Assembly: GCA_001793945.1 (NCBI GenBank)
Contig: MGIW01000003.1
Coordinates: 1-56,857, forward strand
Direction: 5' to 3'
DNA length: 56,857 nt
DNA from: Candidatus Wolfebacteria bacterium RIFOXYD12_FULL_48_21
GTDB taxonomy: Bacteria; Patescibacteriota; Minisyncoccia; UBA6257; UBA9933
In this document: positions 6,821 to 36,879 of the stretch, piece by piece
How the letters are laid out: each line of letters begins with the position of its first letter
Position numbering within the stretch: position 1 is the first letter of the stretch
The notes under the pieces: generated by a model
Told to the model about the DNA's origin: nothing
Seen by the model: only the letters and a program-made list of their open reading frames with translations
Database searches by the model: none
Program-made: the position numbers and the translations under genes

Positions 6821-6940
6821 CTCCTTCTCCCACCATTTGCCGTCTTTTTCGGAAAAGAACCGTATTATTTGTTCTGCGGAATATTCTTTCATGGCTGGCA
6901 TATTGCCCTTAGTATAGGGGATTTTTGTGTTTGGTGCAAA
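6821..6940 (-). repeat. R module copy 1 (promoter plus leaderless 28-codon sORF)
   Basis: Minus strand: TTGCAC, 17 nt, TATACT, 9 nt, ATG. The sORF at 6815-6901 encodes MPAMKEYSAEQIIRFFSEKDGKWWEKEG and then stops. Confidence 0.85.
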
Positions 6941-6942
6941 AA

Positions 6943-7508: not shown

Positions 7509-7628
7509 CTCCTTCTCCCACCATTTGCCGTCTTTTTCGGAAAAGAACCGTATTATTTGTTCTGCGGAATATTCTTTCATGGCTGGCATATTGCCCTTAG
7601 TATAGGGGATTTTTGCGTTTGGTGCAAA
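7509..7628 (-). repeat. R module copy 2
   Basis: Same promoter and start as copy 1. The sORF at 7491-7589 reads on to ...EKEGSICN (32 aa). Confidence 0.85.
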
Positions 7629-7643
7629 AAATGGGCAATCCGC

Positions 7644-8285
7644 TTATCGCCTCCAAAACTGCCATTTCTTATCTTTCTTTTCCTTGCGCTTTTTTTCTCC
7701 TATTATCCTTGCTTCGTCTTTTACCTTCTTCTTTAAATCCTCCGTGCGATATTCTTTTTCCAAATCATGCGCCTCCACTTGAAATCCTTTGTTTTCAAGC
7801 ATGCCTTTTACCCGTTCAAGATGGTTCACGCCCACAATAAATGCAATATTTCGTACACTATCTTTCTTTCTTAAATATTCCTCCAGTCCCTGCACGAACG
7901 CCTTTTCTCTTTTCTCGGTCGACGGTTTTATCCGTATAGTTAGAAATCTTTGCATTTTTGCATCGACAAAAATATGCTTATCGCCATATTTTTCTTCAAG
8001 TATTGTTTTCCCGGAATATATATTCTTTTTCCACCCGTCACCCGGAATCTTGTCGTATGGGCCGCCTTCTTCCACAATAAGATCGGGATTTTCTTCTTCA
8101 CATAATTGCAATAATTTATCCCGTAGCGTTTTTAAGGATGCGTCGAATATCCCTAATAGCTCTTCGGAAAATCCCGCGACCCTCATTTTTTTGATATGCC
8201 GCTTGATATGCCCCTTTGCCTGTATGTGATGCACTACTCCAATCAATTTAATATGTATTTTTTTATAATCTATTTCCTTTGTCAT
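7644..8285 (-). CDS. Tiki/TraB/GumN-like protein with K/R/E-rich tail (copy 1)
   Basis: Start at MTKEIDYKK. IKLIGVVH (GxxH), PDLIVEEGG and FIVGVNHLERVKGMLENKGFQVE resemble the two GxxH motifs plus an acidic motif of the TraB/GumN/ChaN fold. About 85% identical to 16042-16713. Confidence 0.45.
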   Translation of the reverse strand: MTKEIDYKKIHIKLIGVVHHIQAKGHIKRHIKKMRVAGFSEELLGIFDASLKTLRDKLLQLCEEENPDLIVEEGGPYDKIPGDGWKKNIYSGKTILEEKYGDKHIFVDAKMQRFLTIRIKPSTEKREKAFVQGLEEYLRKKDSVRNIAFIVGVNHLERVKGMLENKGFQVEAHDLEKEYRTEDLKKKVKDEARIIGEKKRKEKKDKKWQFWRR

Positions 8286-8305
8286 ATTATTATTTAGCAT
8301 AAGAA

Positions 8306-8331
8306 AAGGGCTCGCGAAACGCGAGCCCTTT
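8306..8331 (-). terminator. intercistronic hairpin (attenuator-like)
   Basis: GGGCTCGCG-TTTC-GCGAGCCC followed by TTTTCTTAT on the minus strand. Lies between the acidic peptide gene and the TraB-like gene. Confidence 0.5.
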
Positions 8332-8347
8332 AGTATAGCGATGACGA

Positions 8348-8503
8348 TCAATCGTCGTCGTCCGGCTCATTCCCCGAAGTATCCGAGTTGCTTCGTGGAT
8401 CATCGTTTCCACACTCCTTCCACGCCGTTTCTTCCGCCTGATCATCGGACACATCAGGATACCCCTCGTCGTCATCCCCAAAAATAAAGTCGAACAGTCC
8501 CAT
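8348..8503 (-). CDS. 51-aa highly acidic peptide (copy 1)
   Basis: AAGGAGG then 7 nt then ATG. Product: MGLFDFIFGDDDEGYPDVSDDQAEETAWKECGNDDPRSNSDTSGNEPDDDD. The longer start in the ORF track lies inside the leader. Confidence 0.6.
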   Translation of the reverse strand: MGLFDFIFGDDDEGYPDVSDDQAEETAWKECGNDDPRSNSDTSGNEPDDDD

Positions 8504-8635
8504 GGCTAAGCCTCCTTTGTGCCAAGTATTCTGCGTGCCGATCATTCTTTTTGAATGCTCAATTAAGCATTGTGCGCCGGCAAAATAATTGTCGTGTTCT
8601 GATTTACTTTATACCCTATATATAACTCTCGTCAA
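8504..8635 (-). promoter_or_regulatory. L leader copy 2 with well-spaced promoter
   Basis: TTGACG (8630-8635), 16-nt spacer with only (TA)4, TATAAA (8608-8613). Same conserved leader core as the other L copies. Confidence 0.6.
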
Positions 8636-8657: not shown

Positions 8658-9794
8658 TCACTCGAATCCAATTGCTTTATGCACTTCTTTAATATCAGCT
8701 TCGCGCTTTGCCTTTGATTCCTCTGTGTGATAATCCGGATCAAATATCGCATCCAAACTTACATCGAATTTACCCGACAAAACCTTCTCTCCCAATGCCA
8801 ATCTCCTTACTATATAAGCGATCACCGGACCGCACATCGTCGCGGCATCACCCAACTGTGGCCATGAATACAATGTCTTCCCCACTTCCAAAATAGATTG
8901 CTGCATGCGCGGAACCACCATATACGGGCCGGCTATTTGCGTTGCCAATTTAGGCATGTCGGTCGGCGCCATGGTCTTTAATGTTTCCATTGAAATATCC
9001 CCCGCCGCGCCGTTAAACAGCTGCAATTCCGGATCAAGGTCATGTCGCTCTATATCAACGATGACGCCATCGCCATTGTCGGTCGCCATGATAAGCGGCA
9101 AGCCCTTCTTTTTTGCCGCTTCACGCAACATGATCTTCATCGGCAAGAAATCCACTTCCTCTATTACCACATCTGCGCCATCCAAAAACTCATCCATATT
9201 CTCAGAAGATACACCCTTGTCGTACATATGCACCGTACCATAGGGGTTCAGCTGTACAATATGACTCGCGACCAAATGCGCTTTGTTCTTGTTCAGCGCG
9301 GAGCAATCATACCGTAATCGGTTCAGGTTTGGGCCGGAAACCACATCCGCATCGGCTATTTTGATCGTCTTCGCGCCACCCATCATGGCAATCGTCAAGG
9401 CCGGATGACTACCCACGCTTAATCCGGCAATGGCAACCGTATAGTTATAAAATTTTTCCTGCTCCTCTTTGGTGATTAGGTTTTTATTGCGCGCAGTCCG
9501 CAACTCTTGATGCACCGCATCCGGCAAATAATGGATCAGATTTTTCGTATACGGAAAATAGAACCACTCCCCATCTTCTTCCATCGACTTGCCCGCCAAA
9601 TATTCTTTTTTAAATGCGGCACAGTCTTCCTTGTGCTCGGGAATGAACTTATATTTTGGATTTCGTACCTGAAAAAGTTCGTCGAGCAATGCATCGTACG
9701 CATCTATGGTCTCGATGATCTCAAACTTTTTCTTGAAATCTTCCAGCGACTCCGTCGCCTTATTCCACTGCATCGGTTTTATTTGCGTATCCAT
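8658..9794 (-). CDS. ThiF/E1-like adenylyltransferase (Rv1355c-type ThiF domain, no nitroreductase domain)
   Basis: 378 aa. LRTARNKNLITKEEQEKF, VAIAGLSVGSH (Rossmann), ADADVVSGPNLNRLRY, IMATDNGDGVIVDIERHDLDP and LYSWPQLGDAA. 16-nt overlap with the upstream PaaK-like gene. Confidence 0.7.
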   Translation of the reverse strand: MDTQIKPMQWNKATESLEDFKKKFEIIETIDAYDALLDELFQVRNPKYKFIPEHKEDCAAFKKEYLAGKSMEEDGEWFYFPYTKNLIHYLPDAVHQELRTARNKNLITKEEQEKFYNYTVAIAGLSVGSHPALTIAMMGGAKTIKIADADVVSGPNLNRLRYDCSALNKNKAHLVASHIVQLNPYGTVHMYDKGVSSENMDEFLDGADVVIEEVDFLPMKIMLREAAKKKGLPLIMATDNGDGVIVDIERHDLDPELQLFNGAAGDISMETLKTMAPTDMPKLATQIAGPYMVVPRMQQSILEVGKTLYSWPQLGDAATMCGPVIAYIVRRLALGEKVLSGKFDVSLDAIFDPDYHTEESKAKREADIKEVHKAIGFE

Positions 9795-11284
9795 TTTTGT
9801 TTTGTTCCGGGCTTAAAATGAGTTGGATGTTCTGCGGGCCATAGGCTTATCTTCGGCCGCGCGCGCTCTTTCAAGTAATTCGAAAGTTCCCTGAATTCCG
9901 AATTGTTTTCGCGCAAGAATTTGAATACTTCCTCCGTCAGGATGTCTGCCAGTTTTTTGCTTTCCTTTTTTCCTTTTTTCATCTCGATGTGTATTTCGAG
10001 ATATTGGTTCTGCGCGTCATCAAATGCCGTCATCATGGAAAACTTTCCGGTTACATATGGATGCAACGCATCCTTCAGAAGCACCTCGCGAATCGTCTCC
10101 GGATAGATCTGTAAGCCGTAAAGCGTAGTCGAAAAGTCATTTCGCTCATACACATAAACGAATGGCAGTTGTTGCTCATTCTTCAACTTTGCCCTCTTCA
10201 TTTCCTTGCCCCAGTCGATCCCCTGAATTTTAATGCACTCCATCATTTCGCCATACCCTACCACTCCGCCATTATCTCCGATCGCGTAGCGGACCAACGG
10301 GATAGCACTATTCCCCGTAAGCACCACCTCGCCGTCCGAAGCCTCAAATATGATTTGCAACGGATTATATTGCGCCAGCGTCGGCGTTTTTTTAATTTCC
10401 GAAAAAATATCTTCAAACAACCCCATGTTTTTCATCGCCAATCTTCGTACAAGGATCGCCGTTGGCGTTTCAAATGCCATCGCGCCGATATCCGCAGAGC
10501 CATAAATGCTCATGATGTCTTGAAACAGATTCTTGATCCCTGTTTTTTCCACAAGGTAATCCCTGAAGTTCTCGGTGTATGCCTCTGCTGCGGTCACTAT
10601 GCGCATGTTCAGTTTTTTAAAATCCACCCCGCGCGAACTTCCTTCATCAATAATATCCTTTACCATTGGCGGATATCCCGCCAAAATAACCTGCCCGTAC
10701 AGCGGGGCTATATTTTTTAATGCTTTGAATATCTCTTCCTTATTTATTCCCGGCGTTATGATAGAAACAGGATATTTCCCCCGGTCCGCGGCAATCTCAA
10801 ACGCCTTATAGGTGATCAATCCACCGATCCAAATCCCCATCCCAAATGCCACTATGACCAATGTCGGCTTTTCAACACCAAAAGAACTGTTGCGCAAAAA
10901 AAATTCATGAATGAGTGCGGCATTTTTATCCGCCTCTTCTGTTCGGGGAAAATAAAACGGCTCCCCCGTAGAACCCGAAGTAGCCGTAAAAACAAGTGGT
11001 TTATTCAAATTTCCATCCCAGCACAATTTTTCCAATGGATACTGACGCAAATAATTCTTCTTGCTCGTCAATGGCACACGCTGAAAATCTTCCCAGGTCA
11101 CAATTTTATTATGATCCTTGATCCCGTTCTTTTTCAAAAAATCCTTGTAGGCCGGCACGCGCTGTGCGGCATCATGAAACAGCGCGAGTGCGCGCTTTCG
11201 TCCCTCCTTCTCCCACCATTTGCCGTCTTTTTCGGAAAAGAACCGTATTATTTGTTCTGCGGAATATTCTTTCATGGCTGGCAT
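9779..11284 (-). CDS. PaaK/coenzyme-F390-synthetase-like adenylate-forming enzyme
   Basis: 501 aa. FTATSGSTGEPFYFPRT matches the AMP-binding TSG(S/T)TG motif. The first 28 codons are supplied by R copy 3. Confidence 0.7.
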   Translation of the reverse strand: MPAMKEYSAEQIIRFFSEKDGKWWEKEGRKRALALFHDAAQRVPAYKDFLKKNGIKDHNKIVTWEDFQRVPLTSKKNYLRQYPLEKLCWDGNLNKPLVFTATSGSTGEPFYFPRTEEADKNAALIHEFFLRNSSFGVEKPTLVIVAFGMGIWIGGLITYKAFEIAADRGKYPVSIITPGINKEEIFKALKNIAPLYGQVILAGYPPMVKDIIDEGSSRGVDFKKLNMRIVTAAEAYTENFRDYLVEKTGIKNLFQDIMSIYGSADIGAMAFETPTAILVRRLAMKNMGLFEDIFSEIKKTPTLAQYNPLQIIFEASDGEVVLTGNSAIPLVRYAIGDNGGVVGYGEMMECIKIQGIDWGKEMKRAKLKNEQQLPFVYVYERNDFSTTLYGLQIYPETIREVLLKDALHPYVTGKFSMMTAFDDAQNQYLEIHIEMKKGKKESKKLADILTEEVFKFLRENNSEFRELSNYLKERARPKISLWPAEHPTHFKPGTKQKWIRK

Positions 11285-11323
11285 ATTGCCCTTAGTATAG
11301 GGGATTTTTGCGTTTGGTGCAAA
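11204..11323 (-). repeat. R module copy 3 (the only copy fused in frame to a long gene)
   Basis: Identical promoter and start. The reading frame continues as ...WWEKEGRKRALALFHDAAQRVPAYKDFL. Confidence 0.85.
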
Positions 11324-11341
11324 TATGTGGTTTTCAATTAT

Positions 11342-11422: not shown

Positions 11423-12541
11423 ATGCAAAATTCTACACTCCCTGTTCTGCCCCAAGCCGTCATGCCTACTATTAAGGTCGTGTCGAGCACATGCAATCTT
11501 CGCTGCCACTATTGCTATTACAATGCATTAGACCAATCCCGCCCGAATCCAATGAGCACTAAGACTGTCACGAATTTGATCAAAAAAACGATTGAGTTTG
11601 TGCAAGACGACTATGTTCACTTCACATGGCACGGCGGAGAGCCTCTCTTGGCCGGAATGAATTTTTATGAACATATCCTCCGTATCCAAGAGCTGTACGG
11701 CAAGAAGAAAACAATCATCAACGGCATCCAAACCAATGCGACTCTTGTCAGTGACCGGTGGGCGAGCTTCTTCAAGAAACACGATTTCCGTGTTGGGGTA
11801 AGTATTGACGGCCCACCTATGATCCAAAATGCGCATCGAGTACTACCGTCACAAGGAGGAAGTTCTCGATTAGTACAACAAGGATTGCGTGCGCTCCAGC
11901 GCCATGACATCTACCCGCCAGCGATAGCGGTCGTTACCCGAGAATCCCTCGGCAATGCTCGGAAGATCTTCCAGTATTTCCTAAGGAACCATGTCCGTAG
12001 CATACACATCAAAGAATGCTACGAGATAGATCCTTCAACAGGGAGGCCCACTGCGCTTTCTGTTATGCCGGATGAATTCACTGCTTTCCTGATCGAAATA
12101 TTTGACATGTGGTTCGATCTGGATGACCCAAGTATTTCCATCAGAAATCTCGAGCAATTAGTTCGTGGCCTCGTCGGCGGTGAGCCATCCCTCTGCGAAG
12201 CCACGGGTAAATGCTGGCTCTTCCCCGTTGTTGAAGCAGATGGAACAGTTGGCGCATGCGATAGCTTCCCTATCCGTGACTATCACTTCGGCAACATAAA
12301 TGAAATGAGTTGGGGCGATCTCTTTGCAAGTGCCGGCAATATTCGATTCTCTGAGAATATCCGGCAAAATGAAGATAGGTGTCGCTCGTGCGAATGGTTT
12401 TCCATATGCCACGGGTGCTGCTTGCGTCATGCGCATTCCCCCGTTACTCACGAGTGGCACCATAATCTTTTCTGTACATCAAAAAAGCGCCTATTCGGCC
12501 ACATCAAGGCACGCATAGACGCAATTCATGCAGGGGGCTAG
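11423..12541 (+). CDS. radical SAM/SPASM maturase, anSME-like (A)
   Basis: CNLRCHYC (CX3CX2C), FTWHGGEPLL, GIQTNATLV, VGVSIDGP. C-terminal SPASM cysteines: CEATGKC...GACDSF...CRSCEWFSICHGCC. Confidence 0.8.
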   Translation: MQNSTLPVLPQAVMPTIKVVSSTCNLRCHYCYYNALDQSRPNPMSTKTVTNLIKKTIEFVQDDYVHFTWHGGEPLLAGMNFYEHILRIQELYGKKKTIINGIQTNATLVSDRWASFFKKHDFRVGVSIDGPPMIQNAHRVLPSQGGSSRLVQQGLRALQRHDIYPPAIAVVTRESLGNARKIFQYFLRNHVRSIHIKECYEIDPSTGRPTALSVMPDEFTAFLIEIFDMWFDLDDPSISIRNLEQLVRGLVGGEPSLCEATGKCWLFPVVEADGTVGACDSFPIRDYHFGNINEMSWGDLFASAGNIRFSENIRQNEDRCRSCEWFSICHGCCLRHAHSPVTHEWHHNLFCTSKKRLFGHIKARIDAIHAGG

Positions 12542-13563
12542 TAAGCCCCCTTTTTTATTACACTGATAACTCGTGTCATCTCGTCAATAAATTTCTTGTC
12601 GATTGCACGCTTCTTTTCAAAATAATATTGTGATAATGGATACATTTGCCATATCACATAATAGTACAGCCCATCATAAGAGATGATTTTCTTTTCTTTT
12701 ATCGCTTCCATATCATACAACAGCACATCGATCCACCCTAAATTTCTCAATAGCGGCGAGAAATGCTTTGCATGCGCTTGGTAGATGTACCCACTCGGAG
12801 CAATCCCCCCTACGACAATCTCGGTAAGAATATTTTTCTTGGACATTTTTGGCTGAACCAGATCTAATAAATCCATGCCGTCCCGTGATGCTGCCGCGCC
12901 AATGATCTTACTCAATTTTCTGTTGTTATCGAGAAGCACATGCACCATCTCATGCGCCATAACACCCAATGCGGTTTCCATATATTCATCAGAGTTATCT
13001 TCTATCGCTGCTTCCAATGTAATATGACCGCATCCCAAATTCGCACCGCCAGAGGCGCTTTTGTTGTTTATCGGACTCGGTATGATGTGCACGACAAAAT
13101 CCTCCAGCTTTTTATCGGGCTTGATCGCTCGCTCCATCGCCGCCATAAGCTTTATTCCATTTTCCGACTCCGCAATTTTCTTCAACGATCGACCCCATGC
13201 CTTGATCCCCTTCTCATCCCATATTTTTTTAAATCGTGGCTCGAACATGCGAAACACGCTCCGAATCTTTTTATACTCACCTTCCATTACATTTTTTTCT
13301 ACCTCCTCCCATGCTTCTTTCTCGGAGTTAAGAAAAAAATATTGTCCAAGATACACGAGTTTGTTCTTTTTATATTCAAACCCATATTTCCGCATAACAT
13401 CCCCAAAAACATTGATTGCTTCGCTTTCCTTTTCCGTCAGTACCCCCGTTTGCTTTATCCATTCTTTGTTATATTCAGTTCTGCATGAAAAATGCCACTC
13501 GGCAAGGTTCGAGATAAAGAAAAATAAATTTGAAATCCTTGAATGGACTATTTTATACTTCAT
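12538..13563 (-). CDS. HExxH putative zinc metallopeptidase (paralog of 22529-23383)
   Basis: Start at MKYKIVHSR. The longer ORF would overlap the precursor gene. Motif VMAHEMVHVLL. Shares SRxSNxxFF and ExxVxGxxPxGY blocks with the other HExxH protein. Stop overlaps the rSAM stop by 4 nt (convergent). Confidence 0.5.
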   Translation of the reverse strand: MKYKIVHSRISNLFFFISNLAEWHFSCRTEYNKEWIKQTGVLTEKESEAINVFGDVMRKYGFEYKKNKLVYLGQYFFLNSEKEAWEEVEKNVMEGEYKKIRSVFRMFEPRFKKIWDEKGIKAWGRSLKKIAESENGIKLMAAMERAIKPDKKLEDFVVHIIPSPINNKSASGGANLGCGHITLEAAIEDNSDEYMETALGVMAHEMVHVLLDNNRKLSKIIGAAASRDGMDLLDLVQPKMSKKNILTEIVVGGIAPSGYIYQAHAKHFSPLLRNLGWIDVLLYDMEAIKEKKIISYDGLYYYVIWQMYPLSQYYFEKKRAIDKKFIDEMTRVISVIKKGAY

Positions 13564-13600
13564 GATATTCAGTATACCAAAATGATTCGCACTATAAAAT

Positions 13601-13624
13601 AAAGGCTCACATCCGTGAGCCTTT
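13601..13624 (-). terminator. hairpin after the precursor-like sORF (partial terminator)
   Basis: AAAGGCTCAC-GGAT-GTGAGCCTTT then ATTTTAT on the minus strand. Lies between the 62-aa ORF and the HExxH gene. Confidence 0.5.
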
Positions 13625-13654
13625 ATACTATTCTCGACAACAGAACACCTTCCC

Positions 13655-13843
13655 TTAGCCAACAGACTTACTGTGGCCATTGCTGCTGTGGTTGTTGTAG
13701 CTCGGCCCATCATGATGGCAATACAGCCACTGATCACGCGCAACCCTCTCGATTGCACCGAGTACTAAGGCGCCTCGAGGCACCTGCGCACACCCATGAT
13801 TTCCACTTCCCAAACTCTTTTTGGGTACTACCGTTGTCTGCAT
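13655..13843 (-). CDS. 62-aa candidate RiPP precursor (A)
   Basis: AGGAGG then 7 nt then ATG. Product: MQTTVVPKKSLGSGNHGCAQVPRGALVLGAIERVARDQWLYCHHDGPSYNNHSSNGHSKSVG. Own promoter: TTGACA (13980-13985), 17 nt, CACAAT. Confidence 0.5.
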   Translation of the reverse strand: MQTTVVPKKSLGSGNHGCAQVPRGALVLGAIERVARDQWLYCHHDGPSYNNHSSNGHSKSVG

Positions 13844-13998
13844 AATACATCCTCCTTAGGCCAGTTGAATGAATCTTGCTTCTGTTGTTGATACTACTAC
13901 GCAATCAAATTCGATCAATGCGAATCGAATTGCATTTGATTAAATTACTAAATTAAATTGTGTGCTACTTCTACCGAATTGTCAAATGCCCACAAATA

Positions 13999-14117
13999 TC
14001 CTTCTCCCACCATTTGCCGTCTTTTTCGGAAAAGAACCGTATTATTTGCTCTGCGGAATAGTCTTTCATGGCTGGCATAGTGCCATTAGTATAGGGTATT
14101 TTTGGGGTTGGTGCAAA
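13999..14117 (-). repeat. R module copy 4 (most diverged)
   Basis: TTGCAC, 17 nt, ATACTA-type -10. The sORF at 13971-14078 encodes MPAMKDYSAEQIIRFFSEKDGKWWEKDICGHLTIR. The terminal AAGGAGG is mutated to AAGGAT. Confidence 0.8.
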
Positions 14118-14134
14118 AAAAAATAAAGGGATCC

Positions 14135-15905: not shown

Positions 15906-16025
15906 CTCCTTCTCCCACCATTTGCCGTCTTTTTCGGAAAAGAACCGTATTATTTGTTCTGCGGAATATTCTTTCATGGCTGGCATATTGCCCTTAGTAT
16001 AGGGGATTTTTGCGTTTGGTGCAAA
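15906..16025 (-). repeat. R module copy 5
   Basis: The sORF at 15900-15986 gives the same 28-aa product as copy 1. The flank through the L promoter is also shared with copy 1. Confidence 0.85.
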
Positions 16026-16041
16026 AATACGGGCAATTCGC

Positions 16042-16713
16042 TTATCGCCTCCAAAGCTGCCATTTTGGCCTTTTCTTTTCCTTCTTTTCTTTGCGCTTTT
16101 TTTCTCTCATTTTTAGCGCATTTTCTCTCATTCTCTGCGCATCTTCCCTTATTTTCCTTCTTAGATCGTCTGTATAATATTTATCACTCAAATTATGCGT
16201 CTCCACTTGAAATCCTTTATTTTCGAGCATAATTTTTACCCGCTCGAGATGGTTCACGCCCACAATAAATGCAACATTCCGCACATCACTTTTCTTCCTT
16301 AAATACTCCTCCAGCCCCCGTACGAACGCCTTTTCCCTTTTCTCGGTCGACGGTTTTATCCGTATAGTTAGGAATCTTTGCATTTTTGCATCGACAAAAA
16401 TATGCTTATCGCCATATTTTTCTTCAAGTATTGTTTTCCCGGAATATATATTCTTTTTCCACCGATCGGCTGGGGTTTTATCGTATGCCCCACCCTCCTC
16501 TACCACAAGGTCGGGATTTTCTTCTTCGCATAATTGCAACAATTCATTACGCAACGCTTTCAAAGTTATATCTAATACGCCCAGTAGGTCTTCGGAAAAT
16601 CCCTTGGCGCGCAACTTTTGAATATGCCACTTGATATGCCCGTTTGCTTGCACATAATGAACCAACCCGATCAATCTAATGTGTATTTTTTTGTATTCTA
16701 TTTCCTTTGTCAT
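16042..16713 (-). CDS. Tiki/TraB/GumN-like protein with K/R/E-rich tail (copy 2)
   Basis: 223 aa. IRLIGLVH, PDLVVEEGG and FIVGVNHLERVKIMLENKGFQVE. Paralog of 7644-8285. Confidence 0.45.
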   Translation of the reverse strand: MTKEIEYKKIHIRLIGLVHYVQANGHIKWHIQKLRAKGFSEDLLGVLDITLKALRNELLQLCEEENPDLVVEEGGAYDKTPADRWKKNIYSGKTILEEKYGDKHIFVDAKMQRFLTIRIKPSTEKREKAFVRGLEEYLRKKSDVRNVAFIVGVNHLERVKIMLENKGFQVETHNLSDKYYTDDLRRKIREDAQRMRENALKMREKKRKEKKEKKRPKWQLWRR

Positions 16714-16735
16714 ATTATTTATTCAGTATAAGAAT

Positions 16736-16759
16736 AGGGCTCGCGAAACGCGAGCCCTA
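16736..16759 (-). terminator. intercistronic hairpin (copy of 8306-8331)
   Basis: AGGGCTCGCG-TTTC-GCGAGCCCT. The downstream T-run is weaker than in copy 1. Confidence 0.4.
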
Positions 16760-16777
16760 TTGGAATCAATGCGGCGA

Positions 16778-16930
16778 TCAATCGTCTTCGCCCGGCACAT
16801 TTCCTGAGGTATCCGAGTTATCCTCAGGAGAACCCCCGGCCTCCTTCCACGCCGCTTCTTCCGCCTGATCGTCAGTCGCATCAGGATACCCCTCGTCGTC
16901 ATCCCCAAAAATGAAGTCGAACAATCCCAT
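16778..16930 (-). CDS. 50-aa highly acidic peptide (copy 2), not in the ORF track in this frame
   Basis: AGAGGTG then ATG. Product: MGLFDFIFGDDDEGYPDATDDQAEEAAWKEAGGSPEDNSDTSGNVPGEDD. The listed 16723-16956 ORF is a different frame. Confidence 0.6.
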   Translation of the reverse strand: MGLFDFIFGDDDEGYPDATDDQAEEAAWKEAGGSPEDNSDTSGNVPGEDD

Positions 16931-17090: not shown

Positions 17091-17210
17091 CTCCTTCTCC
17101 CACCATTTGCCGTCTTTTTCGGAAAAGAACCGTATTATTTGTTCTGCGGAATATTCTTTCATGGCTGGCATAGTGCCCTTAGTATAGGGGATTTTTGCGT
17201 TTGGTGCAAA
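17091..17210 (-). repeat. R module copy 6
   Basis: The sORF at 17085-17171 gives the 28-aa product. Directly preceded by a terminator, as in copy 1. Confidence 0.85.
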
Positions 17211-17212
17211 AA

Positions 17213-17230
17213 AGAGGCGCTTGCGCCTCT
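17213..17230 (-). terminator. terminator (copy of 20414-20433)
   Basis: AGAGGCG-CAAG-CGCCTCT followed by TTTTTT on the minus strand. Follows the truncated response regulator. Confidence 0.6.
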
Positions 17231-17237
17231 TTTGTTT

Positions 17238-17489
17238 TTACCCTTTCATTAACGCTTGCCGGATCTTTTTTACCACTTCTTCGAGGTCGGTGCCTTTTTC
17301 CATAAAATCTACTGCGCCGAGCTCTTTTGCGAGTGCGTCCCTGTCTTTGAACACGGGCCATGGATTGCTCATGCTCGTGAAAAATATTACCTTTACATTT
17401 TTCATCTCCGGTATATCGCGTAACTCGATAAGATACTCCGTGCCATTCATGCCGGGCATGTTTATGTCGAGCAAAAGCAGGTACGCCAT
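17238..17489 (-). pseudogene. 5'-truncated duplicate of response regulator 20441-20833
   Basis: 17205-17482 is essentially identical to 20406-20685. It encodes only from LLLLDINMPG onward and lacks the N-terminal acidic pocket. A new ATG lies at the junction. Confidence 0.7.
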
Positions 17490-18897: not shown

Positions 18898-20310
18898 CTA
18901 CCTTCCGCTTGAATGGATGTACTCAACAGCAAGCGCTTCCGTAACCGCGCGATAAAAATCGCATAGGTCAGCGAAGAGTCTTTGCCGCCTTTCTCCATCC
19001 GAACGCGCAACGATCTCCCTTGTCACATGACATTGGCCTCCACATGACCCTTCTATTGCGCATCCGGAACAGTAATCGTCAGTCCCAGGAAAGCGACTCT
19101 TGACCAACCCAAGCAGACCGCCTACTACCTCGAATGTTCGTTCAAAGGTATCAATGTGTCCGATCTGTGTAGTCGTATGACCACAGACTTTAATACTGCC
19201 GTCGACATTGAACTCAAGAGTCTTCCCTTCGACGGCAGCACAGAATGCGTGGTTTTCCGTCAACAGACTCCTACTGGTCAAGTTGCGAAAGGCGCTATCC
19301 CATGTACCAAAAAAATCGATGCCTTTATTATTGGCATATTTTTTCAGATGCATAAGCTTCGCTACCCTCTTGGTTACGGGAATATCAACCAAGCCTACAA
19401 GGTCGTAGTCAAACGCTATGGATGTCATACCTCGCTGAGCTGCCAGATCAATCACATCGGTATCGATGAGCTCGAAATTGCCGCCTGTTACCGTGATACT
19501 GAATCCGTCCAGCGGATACCCGATATCAGCCAAGAGATCAAATTTTTCCACGATCCTATTGAATGTACCCGCACCCCCTTTGGAAATACGGATTGCGTCA
19601 TTGGCCTGCGCAGTTCCATCAAGCGAGGTTGCTATGCGCACATGGTACTTCTTAAGCACCTCCGCAATCTCCCTCGTCATAAGCGTAAGATTGGTATTGA
19701 TGGCAAACTCAAAGGTCAAATCGCTCATGCCCTCGCAATACCGAAGGACCTTTTCGATTACCGGCCAGTTAATCAGCGGTTCGGCGTTGCCGAAATGCAT
19801 CTTACCGTGCCTGTTCCCGTATTTTTTCATCAGGCCTGCATACTGGTCGATACACTTCTTGGCCGTCTCCCAGCTCATATTGAGCTGCTTTCGATCCGGA
19901 AGTATACCGACATTACTATCAATAGACGACTGAAAGTGGATACAGTGCGTGCACGCAAAGTTACATGAATCGCTGATCGCAAGCCCCATACGATCAACAG
20001 TCCGCCCACTACTCACTTCCACCAAATGGCTTGCCATCTGGTGGCGCAAAAATTCTTTCTCGTCGAACCCGGGTTCGACGAGAAAGAAGACTTCTGCGAA
20101 CGCGCGAATTGTTTCTCTTGGATCTCCATCGCAAATTTGAGCGATTTCTTCTTTAGAGATAGGCCGCCTAAAGAGATTCAGAAATCGCAAACCCTCATCG
20201 TTAATAATGCGGGGGTTGCCATATAAGGCATGATATGCCATTGCAGACCCCGGCTCCGATCCCGTTACGATGCGGATATTCGGTGACAATTGATATTGTC
20301 GCTTTTCCAT
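18898..20310 (-). CDS. radical SAM/SPASM peptide maturase with N-terminal PqqD/RRE-like domain (B)
   Basis: Start at MEKRQYQ (GAGGAGAGG RBS). The N-terminal ~100 aa look RRE-like (EGLRFLNLFRRPISKEEIAQI). CNFACTHC (CX3CX2C). SPASM cysteines: CAAVEG...VCGH...CSGCAIEGSCGGQC. Confidence 0.75.
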   Translation of the reverse strand: MEKRQYQLSPNIRIVTGSEPGSAMAYHALYGNPRIINDEGLRFLNLFRRPISKEEIAQICDGDPRETIRAFAEVFFLVEPGFDEKEFLRHQMASHLVEVSSGRTVDRMGLAISDSCNFACTHCIHFQSSIDSNVGILPDRKQLNMSWETAKKCIDQYAGLMKKYGNRHGKMHFGNAEPLINWPVIEKVLRYCEGMSDLTFEFAINTNLTLMTREIAEVLKKYHVRIATSLDGTAQANDAIRISKGGAGTFNRIVEKFDLLADIGYPLDGFSITVTGGNFELIDTDVIDLAAQRGMTSIAFDYDLVGLVDIPVTKRVAKLMHLKKYANNKGIDFFGTWDSAFRNLTSRSLLTENHAFCAAVEGKTLEFNVDGSIKVCGHTTTQIGHIDTFERTFEVVGGLLGLVKSRFPGTDDYCSGCAIEGSCGGQCHVTREIVARSDGERRQRLFADLCDFYRAVTEALAVEYIHSSGR

Positions 20311-20359
20311 TGCAACCTCTCCTCTTATTCGGTTAGTAAAGGGCTTCAAAACTGCCAAT

Positions 20360-20388
20360 AGAATACCACTGGTGCATATATGTGTCAA
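20360..20388 (-). promoter_or_regulatory. sigma70-type promoter for rSAM B
   Basis: TTGACA (20383-20388), 17 nt, TATTCT (20360-20365) on the minus strand. Confidence 0.5.
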
Positions 20389-20413
20389 ATTGGTATTAAT
20401 CTTATTGCAAAAA

Positions 20414-20433
20414 AGAGGCGCCTGCGCGCCTCT
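20414..20433 (-). terminator. rho-independent terminator after the response regulators
   Basis: AGAGGCGC-GCAG-GCGCCTCT then TTTTTTGC on the minus strand. Confidence 0.7.
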
Positions 20434-20440
20434 TTTGTTT

Positions 20441-20833
20441 TTACCCTTTCATTAACGCTTGCCGGATCTTTTTTACCACTTCTTCGAGGTCGGTGCCTTT
20501 TTCCATAAAATCTACTGCGCCGAGCTCTTTTGCGAGTGCGTCCCTGTCTTTGAACACGGGCCATGGATTGCTCATGCTCGTGAAAAATATTACCTTTACA
20601 TTTTTCATCTCCGGTATATCGCGTAACTCGATAAGATACTCCGTGCCATTCATGCCGGGCATGTTTATGTCGAGCAAAAGCAGGTCCGGTTTATATGTTT
20701 TTACCGTCTCCAATGCAACCTCCGGGTCGTTGACGGTTTTAATGTCAAAGCCCTCGGCTTGCAATTTCATCGATATGATCGACGATAGATCGAGGTCGTC
20801 GTCTACCATCATGATCCTCGGGGTGGTACTCAT
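20441..20833 (-). CDS. single-domain response regulator (CheY-like receiver)
   Basis: 130 aa. IMMVDDD, LLLLDINMPGMNG (phospho-acceptor Asp), conserved T/K region. No output domain. Confidence 0.85.
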   Translation of the reverse strand: MSTTPRIMMVDDDLDLSSIISMKLQAEGFDIKTVNDPEVALETVKTYKPDLLLLDINMPGMNGTEYLIELRDIPEMKNVKVIFFTSMSNPWPVFKDRDALAKELGAVDFMEKGTDLEEVVKKIRQALMKG

Positions 20834-20845
20834 ATAATGATTATA

Positions 20846-21247
20846 TCACATTCCTGCTTCGGGAGCCGCAATAAGCTCCCTCACCTGTTTTATTAGCTGG
20901 TCAAGATCGACCGCCTTATCGATAAATGCTACTGCTCCCAACTCACTTGCAACACTCTGAAGGTCGCCGCCGCCTTTCCATGGATTGATCATCGACGAGA
21001 AAAATGCGACCTTGATCGCCTTTGCATCGGGATTTTCTTTCAGCTCATTGATGAATTCTATTCCGCTCATGCCCGGCATGTTGATATCGAGCAATACCAG
21101 ATCCGGGTGGATCTCTTCGATCATCCGCAGGCCCATCTGCGGCATATCCGCCACATGCACCGCGAACCCTTCGCTTTCCAGTTTTGTCTTGATGATCGAA
21201 TCGAATTCCCGATCTTCATCCACCAATACCACTAAGTTATGTTCCAT
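20846..21247 (-). CDS. single-domain response regulator (CheY-like receiver)
   Basis: 133 aa. VVLVDED, LVLLDINMPGMSG. No output domain. Confidence 0.85.
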   Translation of the reverse strand: MEHNLVVLVDEDREFDSIIKTKLESEGFAVHVADMPQMGLRMIEEIHPDLVLLDINMPGMSGIEFINELKENPDAKAIKVAFFSSMINPWKGGGDLQSVASELGAVAFIDKAVDLDQLIKQVRELIAAPEAGM

Positions 21248-22528: not shown

Positions 22529-23383
22529 ATGAACCTATCAATCATCATTTCCCGTTTTTCTAATTTCTTATTTTTCGTTCAAAAAAATGGGAATTTTTTG
22601 GCAGCCTATCCTTCTAATAATCCTCTTGATTTATCTTTTTACGAGAAAAATGAACGCGCAATATGGAGACAAATAGAACTATCCACCGACAAGCATACTG
22701 CAAAAAAAATTAAAGAAGCTATTACCCCATTAAAGGGTGAGTTTTTTTCTCACTGGAATGCAATATCCGGGCATCTACTTCTCTGGAAACGCTACTTTCA
22801 AAATAACCGGCACTTGCTTCAGCAAGCACTATCCGAAACAAGCGCGTTATGCGGAGTAAAACATTTCGCAATTTCCAACATTCCTATTTATCTCATTTCT
22901 GACCCAGCGAGCGATGACAACGAGATCAATGCGTGGTTTTCGTGGACCCCAAAACAGTCCTTTCTTGTCGTTGAAATTCCGCACAATCTCACCCCTCCTA
23001 ATCATTTATTCCCTGTAAGCGTATTAATTCATGAATTTTTCCATTTATTAATTCGAAGAAATAAAATTCTATTCTCGACAATCGCTACGCTTGCGCAAAA
23101 AGACAGCTCGCTTATTACAAAAATAGCAGGCGGTATACCAAATAGAATATTTTTAGAAGAATTATTAGTTAGCTCATTTATTCCCGAGGGCTATTTGAGT
23201 AAACAATATTTTGACACGAAAATCCCATCTATCAAGCCAAGACCAAAGACGTTATTACAGTGGAGAAAATTCATAGCGTCAAACATGTATCAAATGGCAC
23301 GAACATATATCAACAGCCACCTCGCCATCGATAAACGATATCTTAATACTATAATAAAAATTATTAAGCAAAGTGCAGTATAA
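22529..23383 (+). CDS. HExxH putative zinc metallopeptidase (paralog of 12538-13563)
   Basis: 284 aa. VLIHEFFHLLI. Shares blocks (SRFSNFLFF, EELLVSSFIPEGYL) with the other HExxH protein. Convergent with rSAM C. Confidence 0.5.
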   Translation: MNLSIIISRFSNFLFFVQKNGNFLAAYPSNNPLDLSFYEKNERAIWRQIELSTDKHTAKKIKEAITPLKGEFFSHWNAISGHLLLWKRYFQNNRHLLQQALSETSALCGVKHFAISNIPIYLISDPASDDNEINAWFSWTPKQSFLVVEIPHNLTPPNHLFPVSVLIHEFFHLLIRRNKILFSTIATLAQKDSSLITKIAGGIPNRIFLEELLVSSFIPEGYLSKQYFDTKIPSIKPRPKTLLQWRKFIASNMYQMARTYINSHLAIDKRYLNTIIKIIKQSAV

Positions 23384-23387
23384 AAAA

Positions 23388-23415
23388 CCCTTATCGACTC
23401 ACGAGCCGATAAGGG
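23388..23415. terminator. bidirectional terminator
   Basis: CCCTTATCG with a 10-nt loop and CGATAAGGG. T-runs on both strands. Serves the HExxH gene (+) and precursor C (-). Confidence 0.75.
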
Positions 23416-23441
23416 TTTTTGATTTTATTCGCAAAGATCCA

Positions 23442-23579
23442 TTATTTCCTATTTGCCCAGTGGCCCCTGTCCCATGGACTCCCCTTCCCCGACGCTCTTA
23501 TTACAGCTTTTTCCTTTGCCTGCAACAAAACCTTCGGGATAAGCCGCGGGTGCGCCTTCGTAGTAACAACTTGCTTCAT
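23442..23579 (-). CDS. 45-aa candidate RiPP precursor (C), not in the ORF track
   Basis: AAGGAGGTG then 6 nt then ATG. Product: MKQVVTTKAHPRLIPKVLLQAKEKAVIRASGKGSPWDRGHWANRK. Lies 39 nt after the rSAM C stop. Terminator follows. Confidence 0.6.
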   Translation of the reverse strand: MKQVVTTKAHPRLIPKVLLQAKEKAVIRASGKGSPWDRGHWANRK

Positions 23580-23618
23580 AGCCTTCACCTCCTTTTTTGC
23601 AAATATGCCTTGCTCGGA

Positions 23619-36508: not shown

Positions 36509-36847
36509 GGGGATGGCAGGCTTAGACATCAGAAGTTCATTGATAAACTGCAGACCGGGCGCTATCCCGCAACATGGCAAAAAACAAGAACTGCCAACAA
36601 AACAGCAGTCCCTGCATTCGCTTTCGCGTAATGCGGTGTCGCCTCACCTGAAGCTTGTACGGTGAACGCGGCATAAACCCTCAAGCTGGTTCAGAATCCG
36701 TGCCGTAGGCTTCTGAACGAGAACCAAATCGGCAAACTCACGGGTGATTCGTCGGATTTTCTGCCTGTGTTTTACACCAACCCGACTATGTCTGTAGATG
36801 TTTTTCAATACCTCTTTTGGACGGGAGTTCAATTCTCCTCATCTCCA
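36509..36847 (+). ncRNA. ssrA: tmRNA
   Basis: 5' GGGGATG pairs with 3' CATCTCC, followed by discriminator A. T-arm GGACGGGAGTTCAATTCTCC. Internal tag frame GCC AAC AAA ACA GCA GTC CCT GCA TTC GCT TTC GCG TAA = ANKTAVPAFAFA. Adjacent to smpB. CCA is not encoded. Confidence 0.9.
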
Positions 36848-36879
36848 CAACCACATTCACACGCTAACCAAAAACTGAT

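What the first reader, a model, noticed from the sequence alone, without database searches (positions are those of the whole stretch)
13655..13843. Candidate precursor peptide A with its own promoter, structured 5' UTR and partial terminator
A 62-aa ORF has an AGGAGG RBS at ideal spacing. Upstream lies TTGACA, 17 nt, CACAAT (13957-13985). The ~110-nt UTR contains the hairpin GCAATTCGAT...ATCGAATTTG. A hairpin followed by ATTTTAT (13601-13624) separates the ORF from the HExxH gene. That layout is typical of highly expressed RiPP precursor genes.

The N-terminus resembles peptide C: MQTTVVPKK versus MKQVVTTKA, and VPRGALVLGAIERVA versus IPKVLLQAKEKAV. The C-terminal part, DQWLYCHHDGPSYNNHSSNGH, is rich in aromatic residues, His and Cys.

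The ORF track hides this gene inside the over-extended 12538-13758 ORF.
Basis: seen in the sequence. Interest (0 to 1): 0.6.

Follow-up and report, generated by a model that had tools for sequence, protein, structure and literature searches.

The report
Conserved RiPP precursor peptide gene
The 62-codon reading frame is a real, conserved small gene that most likely encodes the precursor of a radical-SAM-modified peptide in an ultra-small groundwater bacterium, always kept together with one radical SAM enzyme and one unnamed HExxH metalloprotein.

Summary
The ORF at 13655-13843 (-) is real. AGGAGG lies 7 nt before its ATG. A very stable terminator-like hairpin follows it (z -4.93). The HExxH gene starts at 13563, not 13758.

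Single-sequence searches found no relative. Searching 119 loci fetched through the HExxH protein found homologous small ORFs in 22. A profile then found 37 further proteins, none named beyond "hypothetical protein".

The members share a leader helix and a C-terminal core of repeated aromatic-X-Asp/Asn/Lys/Arg triplets. The gene sits directly before the HExxH gene or directly before the anSME-like radical SAM/SPASM gene. All 14 loci with the closest radical SAM relatives carry it.

- A hairpin plus U-run follows the peptide gene in 16 of 16 spacers.
- Shine-Dalgarno sites precede 20 of 20 peptide genes and 0 of 20 HExxH genes.

Best reading: a precursor of a triceptide-like cyclophane RiPP in a compact three-gene cassette.

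Not supported: the "structured 5' UTR" (z -0.21) and the resemblance to peptide C (hhalign probability 0.07%).

The chemistry, and whether the HExxH protein is a peptidase or an oxygenase, remain inferred.

The parts
13655..13843 (-). Precursor-peptide gene (62 aa plus stop). It has a variable N-terminus, a leader helix (about residues 25-38) and a C-terminal core with aromatic-X-X triplets (HHD, YNN, HSS, HSK).
   Evidence: ORF. Family of 21 aligned members, A3. 37 further database proteins. Motif statistics.
13851..13856 (-). Shine-Dalgarno AGGAGG, 7 nt before the ATG.
   Evidence: Sequence. A Shine-Dalgarno site precedes 20 of 20 family members examined.
13957..13985 (-). Promoter-like TTGACA-17-CACAAT (consensus match only).
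   Evidence: 10 of 12 positions match. The class of sites is not enriched over shuffles.
13999..14119 (-). One of six copies of a 121-nt repeat. It holds a promoter-like TTGCAC-17-TATACT and the first 27 codons of the PaaK-like gene, here a stub ORF of 35 codons. It is a possible alternative promoter for the peptide gene.
   Evidence: The promoter-like site 14117->14088 is. About 6-fold contig depth over the repeat.
13599..13626 (-). Terminator-like hairpin (12-pair stem, 4-nt loop) followed by a U-rich tail. It lies between the peptide gene and the HExxH gene.
   Evidence: z -4.93, 0 of 200 shuffles. The same architecture is in 16 of 16 related spacers.
13571..13598 (-). Promoter-like TTTATA-16-TATACT (TG-extended), ending 7 nt before the HExxH start. 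This suggests a leaderless HExxH mRNA (inference).
   Evidence: 0 of 20 HExxH genes have a Shine-Dalgarno site, and 18 of 20 have TAnnnT 2-16 nt before the ATG.
12538..13563 (-). HExxH protein, 341 aa, a zincin-like fold of an unnamed family. HExxH lies at residues 204-208 (nt 12940-12954) and the invariant Glu at residue 248.
   Evidence: Start and length. Invariant residues. No Pfam or NCBIfam family above cut-off. Model pLDDT 93.3. Fold matches.
11423..12541 (+). Radical SAM/SPASM enzyme, 372 aa, anSME-like, convergent with the HExxH gene. It is the proposed maturase.
   Evidence: Pfam Radical_SAM plus SPASM. NCBIfam scores all below cut-offs. PDB sequence matches to anSME at 7e-55 and to the ChlB radical SAM domain at 1e-27. 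Co-location in 72 of 119 loci. Tree.
12532..12551 (.). GC-rich hairpin with T-runs at the junction of the two convergent genes (terminator-like).

Best explanation
The ORF encodes a ribosomally made precursor peptide. Its N-terminal part acts as a leader. This includes a conserved amphipathic helix of the type G-x-[KR]-I-[IV]-x-x-[IL], followed by Q-Q-x-x-C.

Its conserved C-terminal core is the substrate of the neighbouring anSME-like radical SAM/SPASM enzyme (11423-12541). The core reads [HY]-x-D, G-P-x, [YH]-N-[DN], x-S-[GS], then [HFW]-x-[KRN]. The enzyme most likely joins each aromatic side chain to the beta-carbon of the residue two positions on, giving three-residue cyclophanes as in triceptides.

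The HExxH protein (12538-13563) acts on the same peptide. It either removes the leader as a zinc peptidase or oxidises the cross-linked His/Asp residues.

The peptide gene is strongly translated, with a canonical Shine-Dalgarno site. It is insulated from the HExxH gene by a terminator hairpin, so peptide is made in excess over enzyme.

**Shown:** the gene is real, conserved and physically linked to the two enzymes, and the signals are conserved.

**Inferred:** that it is modified at all, the kind of cross-link, the role of the HExxH protein and the function of the product.
For: **1. Family.**
- phmmer with the peptide against 22,947 six-frame segments of 119 related loci plus the window gave 13 loci at E 1e-6 to 3e-3.
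- An iterated profile gave 22 loci plus the window at E <= 0.01.
- The profile A3 found 38 proteins of 43-78 aa, own included, among 5.8 billion. E reached 2.6e-17.

**2. Linkage.**
- In 18 loci the ORF lies directly before the HExxH gene.
- In 4 loci (L074, L079, L080, L083) it lies directly before the radical SAM gene on the other strand.
- Gene order and orientation vary, but the trio stays together.
- Flanks outside it are unrelated housekeeping genes.

**3. Co-variation with the enzyme.**
- All 14 loci whose radical SAM is at least 41% identical to the window's carry the peptide.
- On a 60-row radical SAM tree the window sits in a 15-row clade (SH-aLRT 98) made only of peptide-bearing loci.
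- Peptide labels need 4 changes on that tree, against 20.1 in shuffles (0 of 200).

**4. Signals.**
- A Shine-Dalgarno site precedes 20 of 20 peptide genes and 0 of 20 HExxH genes.
- A hairpin plus U-run lies in 16 of 16 spacers, z -1.4 to -6.7.

**5. Core motifs, in 50 distinct members.**
- 48 have at least two aromatic-x-Asp triplets in the last 26 residues.
- Aromatic-x-[DNKR] density is 10.1 per 100 aa in cores against 0.98 in leaders.
- The observed count is 131, against 50.3 +/- 5.3 in composition-shuffled cores.

**6. Enzyme.**
- It has Radical_SAM plus SPASM domains.
- Its best models are anSME, DynA, DarW/DarE, AmcB, YhhB, GrrM/OscB and FxsB.
- Solved relatives are anSME and the cyclophane synthase ChlB.
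- The genome has no sulfatase above the family cut-off.

**7. Literature.**
- Triceptides are defined by aromatic-to-C-beta links on aromatic-X-X motifs, including His motifs HTK, HAA and HNR (PMC11499958, part 1 read).
- Characterised triceptides are cleaved just before the first motif (PMC12912966, passages).
Against: - No mass, RNA or protein evidence exists.
- The radical SAM enzyme scores below the curated cut-off of every named family, and its best score is to anSME rather than to a cyclophane synthase.
- The aromatic-X-X pattern was recognised after seeing the sequences. The members are related, so the statistics overstate independence.
- A Ser in D-x-S-G is present in 42 of 50 members and a Cys before the first motif in 39 of 50. 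Ser or Cys chemistry is therefore not excluded.
- The family is rare. It was not found in the 400 other genomes of an even sample of the phylum, nor in the 3 same-genus genomes searched.
- No transporter or immunity gene is consistently nearby.
- One peptide-bearing piece (L060, 3,516 nt) shows no radical SAM gene in the DNA held.
Confidence: 0.6

Rival explanations
1. It is a radical-SAM-modified precursor, but the chemistry is not three-residue C-C cyclophane formation. Alternatives are ether or other cross-links as in daropeptides, or anSME-like oxidation of the conserved Ser or Cys.
For: - The enzyme's best family scores are anSME (297.6 bits) and DynA (236.1 bits), ahead of the triceptide synthases YhhB, GrrM/OscB and FxsB (131-152 bits).
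- D-x-S-G is present in 42 of 50 members and C-[HY]-x-D in 39 of 50.
Against: - No Ser or Cys is invariant, whereas aromatic-x-Asp is present in 50 of 50 members.
- The daropeptide motif is aromatic-X-aromatic (PMC12912966, passages). That motif is not the conserved pattern here.
Confidence: 0.2
2. The cassette makes a small conserved metal-binding or redox molecule for the cell's own use, not an antimicrobial peptide. This would parallel PQQ or mycofactocin, which come from a peptide, a radical SAM/SPASM enzyme and a peptidase.
For: - The core, not the leader, is the most conserved part. This holds across loci whose HExxH proteins are only 28-37% identical to the window's.
- The core is rich in His, Asp, Asn and Tyr.
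- No consistent transporter is nearby.
- The module is a minimal trio of peptide, radical SAM/SPASM and zincin-like protein.
Against: - The family is patchy and rare within the phylum and was not found in same-genus genomes, which is unlike a core cofactor.
- No dependent enzyme is identified.
- The comparison with PQQ and mycofactocin is recalled and was not tested here.
Confidence: 0.12
3. The small protein is not modified. It is a partner, inhibitor or regulator of the HExxH metalloprotein.
For: In 18 of 22 loci it lies immediately before the HExxH gene.
Against: - In 4 loci it sits before the radical SAM gene instead.
- Its type follows the radical SAM phylogeny.
- The conserved part is a short, low-complexity C-terminal tail with no sign of a folded domain.
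Confidence: 0.06
4. It is a chance ORF or a remnant, and the 406-aa extended ORF is the true product.
For: The extended frame is open, and a gene caller chose a 399-aa form (P0002).
Against: - 13 of 13 other relatives are 312-344 aa and align from residue 1.
- 63 locus-encoded relatives are 302-351 aa.
- The extension would run through a hairpin of z -4.93.
- The small ORF is conserved with its Shine-Dalgarno site.
Confidence: 0.02

Closest known systems
Triceptides: cyclophane RiPPs made by three-residue cyclophane-forming radical SAM enzymes (XyeB, GrrM/OscB, FxsB, YhhB, HaaB, HtkB, ChlB, MicB)
   Same: - A short precursor has a leader and a C-terminal core holding several aromatic-X-X triplets, His- and Tyr-containing ones included.
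- An adjacent SPASM radical SAM enzyme of the anSME-like lineage is present.
- A conserved site just before the first motif could be where the leader is cut.
   Different: - The precursor family matches no Pfam or NCBIfam model.
- The enzyme is below the cut-off of every named maturase family.
- The third residue is mostly Asp or Asn.
- The fixed partner is a stand-alone zincin-like HExxH protein of an unnamed family.
- The hosts are ultra-small-genome bacteria.
- The cross-link itself is untested.
alpha-KG-dependent HExxH beta-hydroxylases of RiPP pathways (ChlB HExxH domain, BpmH, PflC/PosC; IPR026337)
   Same: - It is an HExxH protein tied to a cyclophane-type radical SAM enzyme.
- The known members hydroxylate Asp and His in a pre-formed cyclophane and have a zincin-like fold (PMC12636437, passages). 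The conserved residues of this core are His, Tyr and Asp.
- The ChlB HExxH domain 8s5f appears among the fold matches: Z 6.1, 174 residues aligned.
   Different: - No NCBIfam model matches at E <= 0.1.
- M1, M30 and LTA4H peptidases score higher (Z 6.9-7.8).
- The invariant HExxH plus Glu 40 residues on is the gluzincin pattern.
- The protein is separate from the radical SAM enzyme, not fused to it.
Anaerobic sulfatase-maturating enzyme (anSME)
   Same: It is the closest solved structure by sequence (4k36/4k37, E 7e-55) and the best NCBIfam model.
   Different: - The score of 297.6 bits is under the cut-off of 349.45.
- The genome holds no sulfatase above the family cut-off.
- The gene is tied to a small peptide gene, not to a sulfatase.

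Membership tests
Triceptide RiPP pathway | The precursor has aromatic-X-X motifs in a C-terminal core behind a leader. | tested here: met
   - Alignment A3.
- 48 of 50 members have at least two aromatic-x-Asp triplets in the last 26 residues, and density is 10-fold over leaders.
- The motif was defined after inspection.
Triceptide RiPP pathway | An adjacent radical SAM/SPASM enzyme belongs to a cyclophane synthase family. | tested here: inconclusive
   - Radical_SAM plus SPASM domains are present.
- YhhB scores 151.9 bits (cut-off 445), GrrM/OscB 148.8 (310), FxsB 130.9 (370), XyeB 86.8 (450) and AmcB 153.5 (425). All are under their cut-offs, and anSME scores higher.
- The ChlB radical SAM domain matches at E 1e-27.
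Triceptide RiPP pathway | An aromatic carbon to C-beta bond spans three residues (-2 Da per motif). | not testable with these tools
   This needs co-expression, HR-MS/MS and NMR.
alpha-KG-HExxH beta-hydroxylase (IPR026337 / TIGR04267) | Sequence match to the family model. | tested here: not met
   There are 0 NCBIfam families at E <= 0.1 for the 341-aa protein. That TIGR04267 is part of that library is recalled, not checked.
alpha-KG-HExxH beta-hydroxylase (IPR026337 / TIGR04267) | Fold like the ChlB HExxH domain. | tested here: inconclusive
   8s5f_A scores Z 6.1, rmsd 4.5, 174 residues aligned, at rank 14. It is within about 1.7 Z of the best peptidase rows, and all Z values are under 8.
alpha-KG-HExxH beta-hydroxylase (IPR026337 / TIGR04267) | Fe(II)- and alpha-KG-dependent hydroxylation of a cyclophane peptide. 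| not testable with these tools
   An enzyme assay is needed.
Gluzincin metallopeptidase | HExxH plus a downstream Glu as third ligand. | tested here: met
   H204, E205, H208 and E248 are invariant in 68 sequences.
Gluzincin metallopeptidase | Membership of a described peptidase family. | tested here: not met
   - Only sub-threshold matches appear. Peptidase_M91 scores 18.6 bits (cut-off 25).
- SprT-like matches 10 of 68 members, best E 6.5e-4, and M48 matches 1 of 68.
- The PDB profile search gives Wss1p at 4.8e-4.
Gluzincin metallopeptidase | Zincin fold. | tested here: inconclusive
   - The top structural rows are all zincins: M1 8sw0_A at Z 7.8, 4fgm at 7.2, M30 7bb8 at 7.0 and thermolysin at 5.7.
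- Z under 8 may be a common arrangement.
- Foldseek's best E is 0.15.
Anaerobic sulfatase maturase | Score over the TIGR03942 cut-off and a sulfatase substrate in the genome. | tested here: not met
   The score is 297.6 against 349.45 bits. The best Sulfatase match in the genome is 19 bits against a cut-off of 25.

The most novel reading that the evidence does not exclude
The peptide, radical SAM and HExxH trio is a portable three-gene module. It builds one defined, conserved His/Tyr-Asp cross-linked small molecule, a metal-binding or redox-active factor. Ultra-small symbiotic bacteria would use it for themselves or at the interface with their host cell. The stand-alone HExxH protein would be a new branch of zincin-fold enzymes with a role not yet described, either oxidative or hydrolytic tailoring of a cyclophane.
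Probability: 0.15. Interest if true: 0.8.

Novelty: new variant of a known kind. Interest (0 to 1): 0.58.

Why it matters
Bacteria of the candidate phyla radiation have genomes under 1 Mb and are thought to carry little secondary metabolism. This 57-kb window nevertheless holds at least two compact peptide, radical SAM and HExxH cassettes.

The family defined here gives a ready test set for a possibly new His/Tyr-to-Asp cyclophane chemistry. It comprises 50 distinct peptides, about 115 HExxH loci and 72 linked radical SAM genes. It also gives a test set for the function of an unnamed zincin-like protein family that is tied to radical SAM peptide maturases.

The case further shows how such precursors are lost in annotation. 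Here the neighbouring enzyme gene was over-extended across it.

Two literature searches bear on novelty. Full-text search for 'cyclophane' with 'Patescibacteria' found 0 papers. 'Patescibacteria' with 'RiPP', 'radical SAM' and 'precursor peptide' found only 3 general surveys, seen as a listing only. The large triceptide networks in the supplements of the Morinaka group's papers could not be seen and may already contain these enzymes.

Tried and rejected
- **Single-sequence searches with the 62-aa peptide.** The 5.8-billion-protein search returned only the peptide itself, from 2 candidates. The 1.84-billion-representative search returned itself plus three long repeat proteins; the two inspected match through 'LYCSHDG'-type or similar repeats and are unrelated. 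A search of 41 related genomes found only the own copy, plus one E 0.063 match with an internal TGA. These blanks came from low sensitivity, not from absence.
- **Rfam.** The only match in the window is a tmRNA; nothing matches at the locus.
- **Sequencing runs.** No RNA holder is listed. 8 DNA runs from 2 studies of groundwater metagenomes hold the stretch.
- **Laying contigs of 4 runs.** 12500-14028 is identical in all, so there are no polymorphisms with which to test selection.
- **Complex prediction of the HExxH protein with the peptide.** No verdict was given (score 0.00, mark 0.32). This is not evidence either way.
- **Nat. Chem. 2024 paper on fused radical SAM/alpha-KG-HExxH proteins.** It is not held. 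What is said about it comes from passages in PMC12636437 and PMC12912966.
- **PMC12186529.** The passages do not bear on this locus.
- **ThiF-like (8658-9794) and PaaK-like (9779-11284) genes as part of the pathway.** Rejected. They recur in 1 and 0 of the 119 related loci.
- **ESM Atlas.** The nearest clusters are unnamed hypothetical proteins. A DUF4932 lead at 0.92 was not followed up.

Full report
**1. What is there**

On the minus strand, AGGAGG (13856-13851) lies 7 nt before an ATG at 13843. It opens a 62-codon frame that ends at 13655.

Downstream, 13626->13599 forms a 12-pair hairpin followed by a U-rich tail. Folded as RNA, the 76-nt stretch gives -26.1 kcal/mol, z -4.93, and 0 of 200 shuffles fold as well.

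Upstream, TTGACA-17-CACAAT (13985->13957) is a 10-of-12 consensus match. Such sites are not enriched in the region: 8 were found against 5.9 +/- 2.5 in shuffles.

But the 112-nt UTR is no more stable than shuffled sequence: z -0.21, and 79 of 200 shuffles fold at least as well.

Just upstream of that promoter-like site begins one of six copies of a 121-nt repeat (13999-14119). The repeat carries TTGCAC-17-TATACT and the first 27 codons of the PaaK-like gene at 9779-11284. Which promoter serves the ORF is therefore open.

**2. The enzyme gene was over-extended**

The mechanical ORF 12538-13758 (406 aa) overlaps the small ORF in another frame.
- The 13 relatives of the HExxH protein in the 5.8-billion-protein collection are 312-344 aa and align from its Met at 13563. 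Only the window's own entry was called longer, at 399 aa.
- 63 further distinct relatives read from fetched loci are 302-351 aa.

**3. The small ORF has relatives, but only context finds them**

The peptide alone found nothing:
- one search returned only itself, from 2 candidates;
- one search returned itself plus three long repeat proteins, and the two inspected are unrelated;
- one search found only the own copy among 41 related genomes.

I then fetched loci through the HExxH protein:
- 38 from the species-representative genomes;
- 76 from metagenomes;
- 5 from related genomes.

The record titles name Paceibacterota, Patescibacteria, Saccharibacteria, Jorgensenbacteria and similar groups. 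The window's own genome is 878.7 kb at 97% completeness. That it belongs to the candidate phyla radiation is my inference.

tblastn and phmmer with the peptide against these 119 loci hit small frames right beside the HExxH gene. An iterated profile settled on 22 loci plus the window at E <= 0.01. One further hit at E 0.013 was left out.

Three loci (L055, L056, L076) carry the same peptide, so 21 distinct sequences were aligned (A3).

With that profile the big protein collection returned 38 proteins of 43-78 aa, the window's own included. E values reach 2.6e-17. No Pfam domain is recorded, and no name beyond 'hypothetical protein'. Where they coincide with my loci, the gene callers chose the same starts.

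**4. Anatomy of the family**

The N-termini vary. Then comes a helix-like block G-x-[KR]-I-[IV]-x-x-[IL]-[KR], then Q-Q-x-x-C in most, then the core. There are two sub-types:
- [HY]-x-D-G-P-[SAG]-[YH]-N-D-x-S-G-...-[HFW]-x-[KRN], which is the window's type;
- C-[HY]-N-D-x-S-G-G-x-[HY]-[NT]-D-[NK].

Asp45 is invariant in the 21 aligned sequences. In 50 distinct members:
- all have at least one aromatic-x-Asp triplet in the last 26 residues, and 48 have at least two;
- aromatic-x-[DNKR] triplets occur at 10.1 per 100 residues in cores against 0.98 in leaders;
- the observed count is 131, against 50.3 +/- 5.3 in composition-shuffled cores.

The motif class was chosen after seeing the data and the sequences are kin. 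This is a description, not an independent test.

**5. Linkage to two enzymes**

A relative of the window's radical SAM/SPASM gene is present in 72 of the 119 loci, mostly convergent and directly after the HExxH gene, as in the window.

All 14 loci whose radical SAM is at least 41% identical to the window's carry the peptide. The other 8 peptide-bearing loci break down as follows:
- five have a 32-35% identical radical SAM;
- one has a fragment at the contig end;
- one contig ends inside the HExxH gene;
- one 3.5-kb piece (L060) shows none.

The peptide gene's position varies:
- it lies before the HExxH gene in 18 loci;
- it lies before the radical SAM gene on the opposite strand in 4 loci;
- the radical SAM gene may be convergent, co-directional downstream, or upstream.

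Genes outside the trio are unrelated, for example DNA ligase, tRNA synthetases and glycosyltransferases. A transporter or a C39 peptidase appears only occasionally.

On a quick maximum-likelihood tree of 60 radical SAM proteins:
- the window falls in a clade of 15 (SH-aLRT 98), all with the peptide;
- a second clade of 5 (SH-aLRT 96) holds the rest;
- the labels need 4 changes, against 20.1 in shuffles (0 of 200).

Kin share labels, so this shows clustering, not co-evolution in a strict sense.

**6. Conserved expression signals**

A Shine-Dalgarno site, mostly AAGGAGG, precedes 20 of 20 peptide genes and 0 of 20 HExxH genes. 18 of 20 HExxH starts have TAnnnT 2-16 nt upstream, which is weak evidence in AT-rich DNA. 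L027 was left out because I could assign no start codon. L056 and L076 were left out as duplicates.

In all 16 distinct spacers between a peptide gene and an HExxH gene (62-94 nt), the minimum-energy fold has a GC-rich stem followed by a U-run. z ranges from -1.43 to -6.69, and 15 of 16 are at or below -2.0 (100 mononucleotide shuffles each).

In the window, TTTATA-16-TATACT ends 7 nt before the HExxH ATG.

I read this as a strongly translated, terminator-bounded peptide gene next to a weakly translated, possibly leaderless enzyme gene. The reading is inferred.

**7. The enzymes**

*Radical SAM protein (372 aa).*
- It has Radical_SAM, Fer4_12 and SPASM domains.
- Its cluster motif starts near residue 24, so it has no long N-terminal extension.
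- NCBIfam scores, all under cut-off: anSME 297.6 bits (cut-off 349.45), DynA 236.1, DarW 161.1, DarE 156.4, AmcB 153.5, YhhB 151.9, GrrM/OscB 148.8, FxsB 130.9 and XyeB 86.8.
- Solved relatives by sequence: anSME 4k36/4k37 (E 7e-55) and the ChlB radical SAM domain 9gm3 (E 1e-27).
- The genome has no sulfatase above the Pfam cut-off, 19 bits against 25.

*HExxH protein.*
- It matches no Pfam or NCBIfam family above cut-off.
- Its profile touches Wss1p and two zinc hydrolases in the PDB at E 5e-4 to 1e-2.
- H204, E205, H208 and E248 are invariant in 68 sequences.
- The AlphaFold2 model is confident: pLDDT 93.3, pTM 0.91.
- Foldseek gives no match at E <= 1e-3. Nearly all the weak rows are zinc peptidases.
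- The wide VIA search puts M1 aminopeptidases (Z 7.8, 7.2), the M30 lugdulysin (7.0) and LTA4H (6.9) first.
- The alpha-KG-dependent HExxH domain of ChlB (8s5f) scores Z 6.1 and thermolysin 5.7.

All Z values are under 8. The fold is best called zincin-like, and a hydrolase cannot be told from an oxygenase.

**8. Comparison with what is known**

- Triceptides are RiPPs with aromatic-to-C-beta cross-links on aromatic-X-X motifs, made by SPASM radical SAM enzymes. About 3,900 putative pathways and ten characterised maturases are reported, with His motifs such as HTK, HAA and HNR (PMC11499958, part 1 of the text read).
- MicA carries YSK, HAS and FTK. Characterised triceptides are cleaved before the first motif. 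Cyclophane synthases share an origin with daropeptide maturases (PMC12912966, passages).
- alpha-KG-dependent HExxH enzymes hydroxylate Asp and His in a pre-formed cyclophane and have a zincin-like fold. One of them can also hydrolyse peptide bonds (PMC12636437, passages).

The present cassette works like a triceptide pathway in every feature that sequence can show. But neither enzyme meets the score threshold of a named family, and the cross-link is untested.

Literature searches (listings only):
- 'cyclophane' with 'Patescibacteria': 0 papers;
- 'triceptide' with 'HExxH': 3 papers, none on such organisms;
- 'Patescibacteria', 'RiPP', 'radical SAM' and 'precursor peptide': 3 general surveys.

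**9. Distribution**

In an even sample of 400 other genomes of the phylum, the profile found no true match. The one match, at E 0.006, lies inside a 728-aa frame. The three same-genus genomes searched lack both the peptide and the HExxH protein. The cassette is therefore rare and patchy, as expected of an accessory, probably transferable module.

**10. Verdict**

- I put about 0.9 on a genuine, translated small gene functionally tied to the two enzymes.
- I put about 0.8 on it being a radical SAM substrate.
- I put about 0.55 on three-residue cyclophane chemistry.
- The HExxH role is split roughly evenly between leader peptidase and oxidative tailoring.

Noticed in passing
window 22529-24722: A second, paralogous cassette. 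It holds an HExxH-like protein (22529-23383 +, keeping the invariant H, E, H and E columns of A2) and an anSME-like radical SAM/SPASM gene (23619-24722 -). Directly after that gene lies 'peptide C' (23442-23579 -, 45 aa). Peptide C has relatives in L087 and L014 that share P-W-D-x-G-H-W-A-N-R, again aromatic-X-X triplets.
   Followed up: partly
window 6822-6942, 7510-7630, 11205-11325, 13999-14119, 15907-16027, 17092-17212: Six direct copies (94-100% identical) of a 121-nt unit. Each holds a promoter-like TTGCAC-17-TATACT 9 nt before an ATG, plus the first 27 codons of the PaaK-like gene. Each copy is followed by different DNA. The unit occurs only in this window of the genome and shows about 6-fold contig depth. 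There are 1-2 copies in 2 of 3 same-genus genomes. It may be a duplicated promoter and 5'-end module marking a recombining island. This is unexplained.
   Followed up: partly
window 18898-20388: A third radical SAM/SPASM-type gene (496 aa) with a 130-residue N-terminal extension. Its best NCBIfam models are the PapB ranthipeptide and RumMC sactipeptide maturases, all under cut-off. It lies next to response-regulator genes (20441-21247). No precursor was looked for.
   Followed up: no
window 7644-8545 and 16042-16930: A duplicated pair, about 83% identical in DNA. Each copy holds a 223-235-aa protein without any Pfam family, preceded by a very acidic 50-65-aa ORF (M-G-L-F-D-F-I-F-G-D-D-D-E-G-Y-P-D...).
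   Followed up: no
window 17208-17485 vs 20411-20688: A 278-nt duplication (97% identical) leaves an 83-aa C-terminal fragment of a response-regulator receiver domain at 17238-17489.
   Followed up: no
L044/L114, L041/L109/L123, L047 (upstream of their HExxH genes): Other HExxH and radical SAM loci carry different small ORFs with aromatic-X-X-rich tails. Examples are a W-K-G-D-W-D-K-W-D-D-W-D-K-W-Q-D tail, H-E-N-H-P-P-F-D-N, and S-W-K-D-S-G-W-A-R-N. This suggests a wider set of precursor families served by this enzyme pair.
   Followed up: no
window 36509-36850: A tmRNA gene (Rfam RF00023, 114.7 bits).
   Followed up: no
P0052 (78 aa): One family member carries two core-like segments in one peptide: Y-A-D-S-P-E-H-N-D and H-T-D-G-P-A-Y-N-D-H-S-G. 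This is a possible two-core precursor.
   Followed up: no
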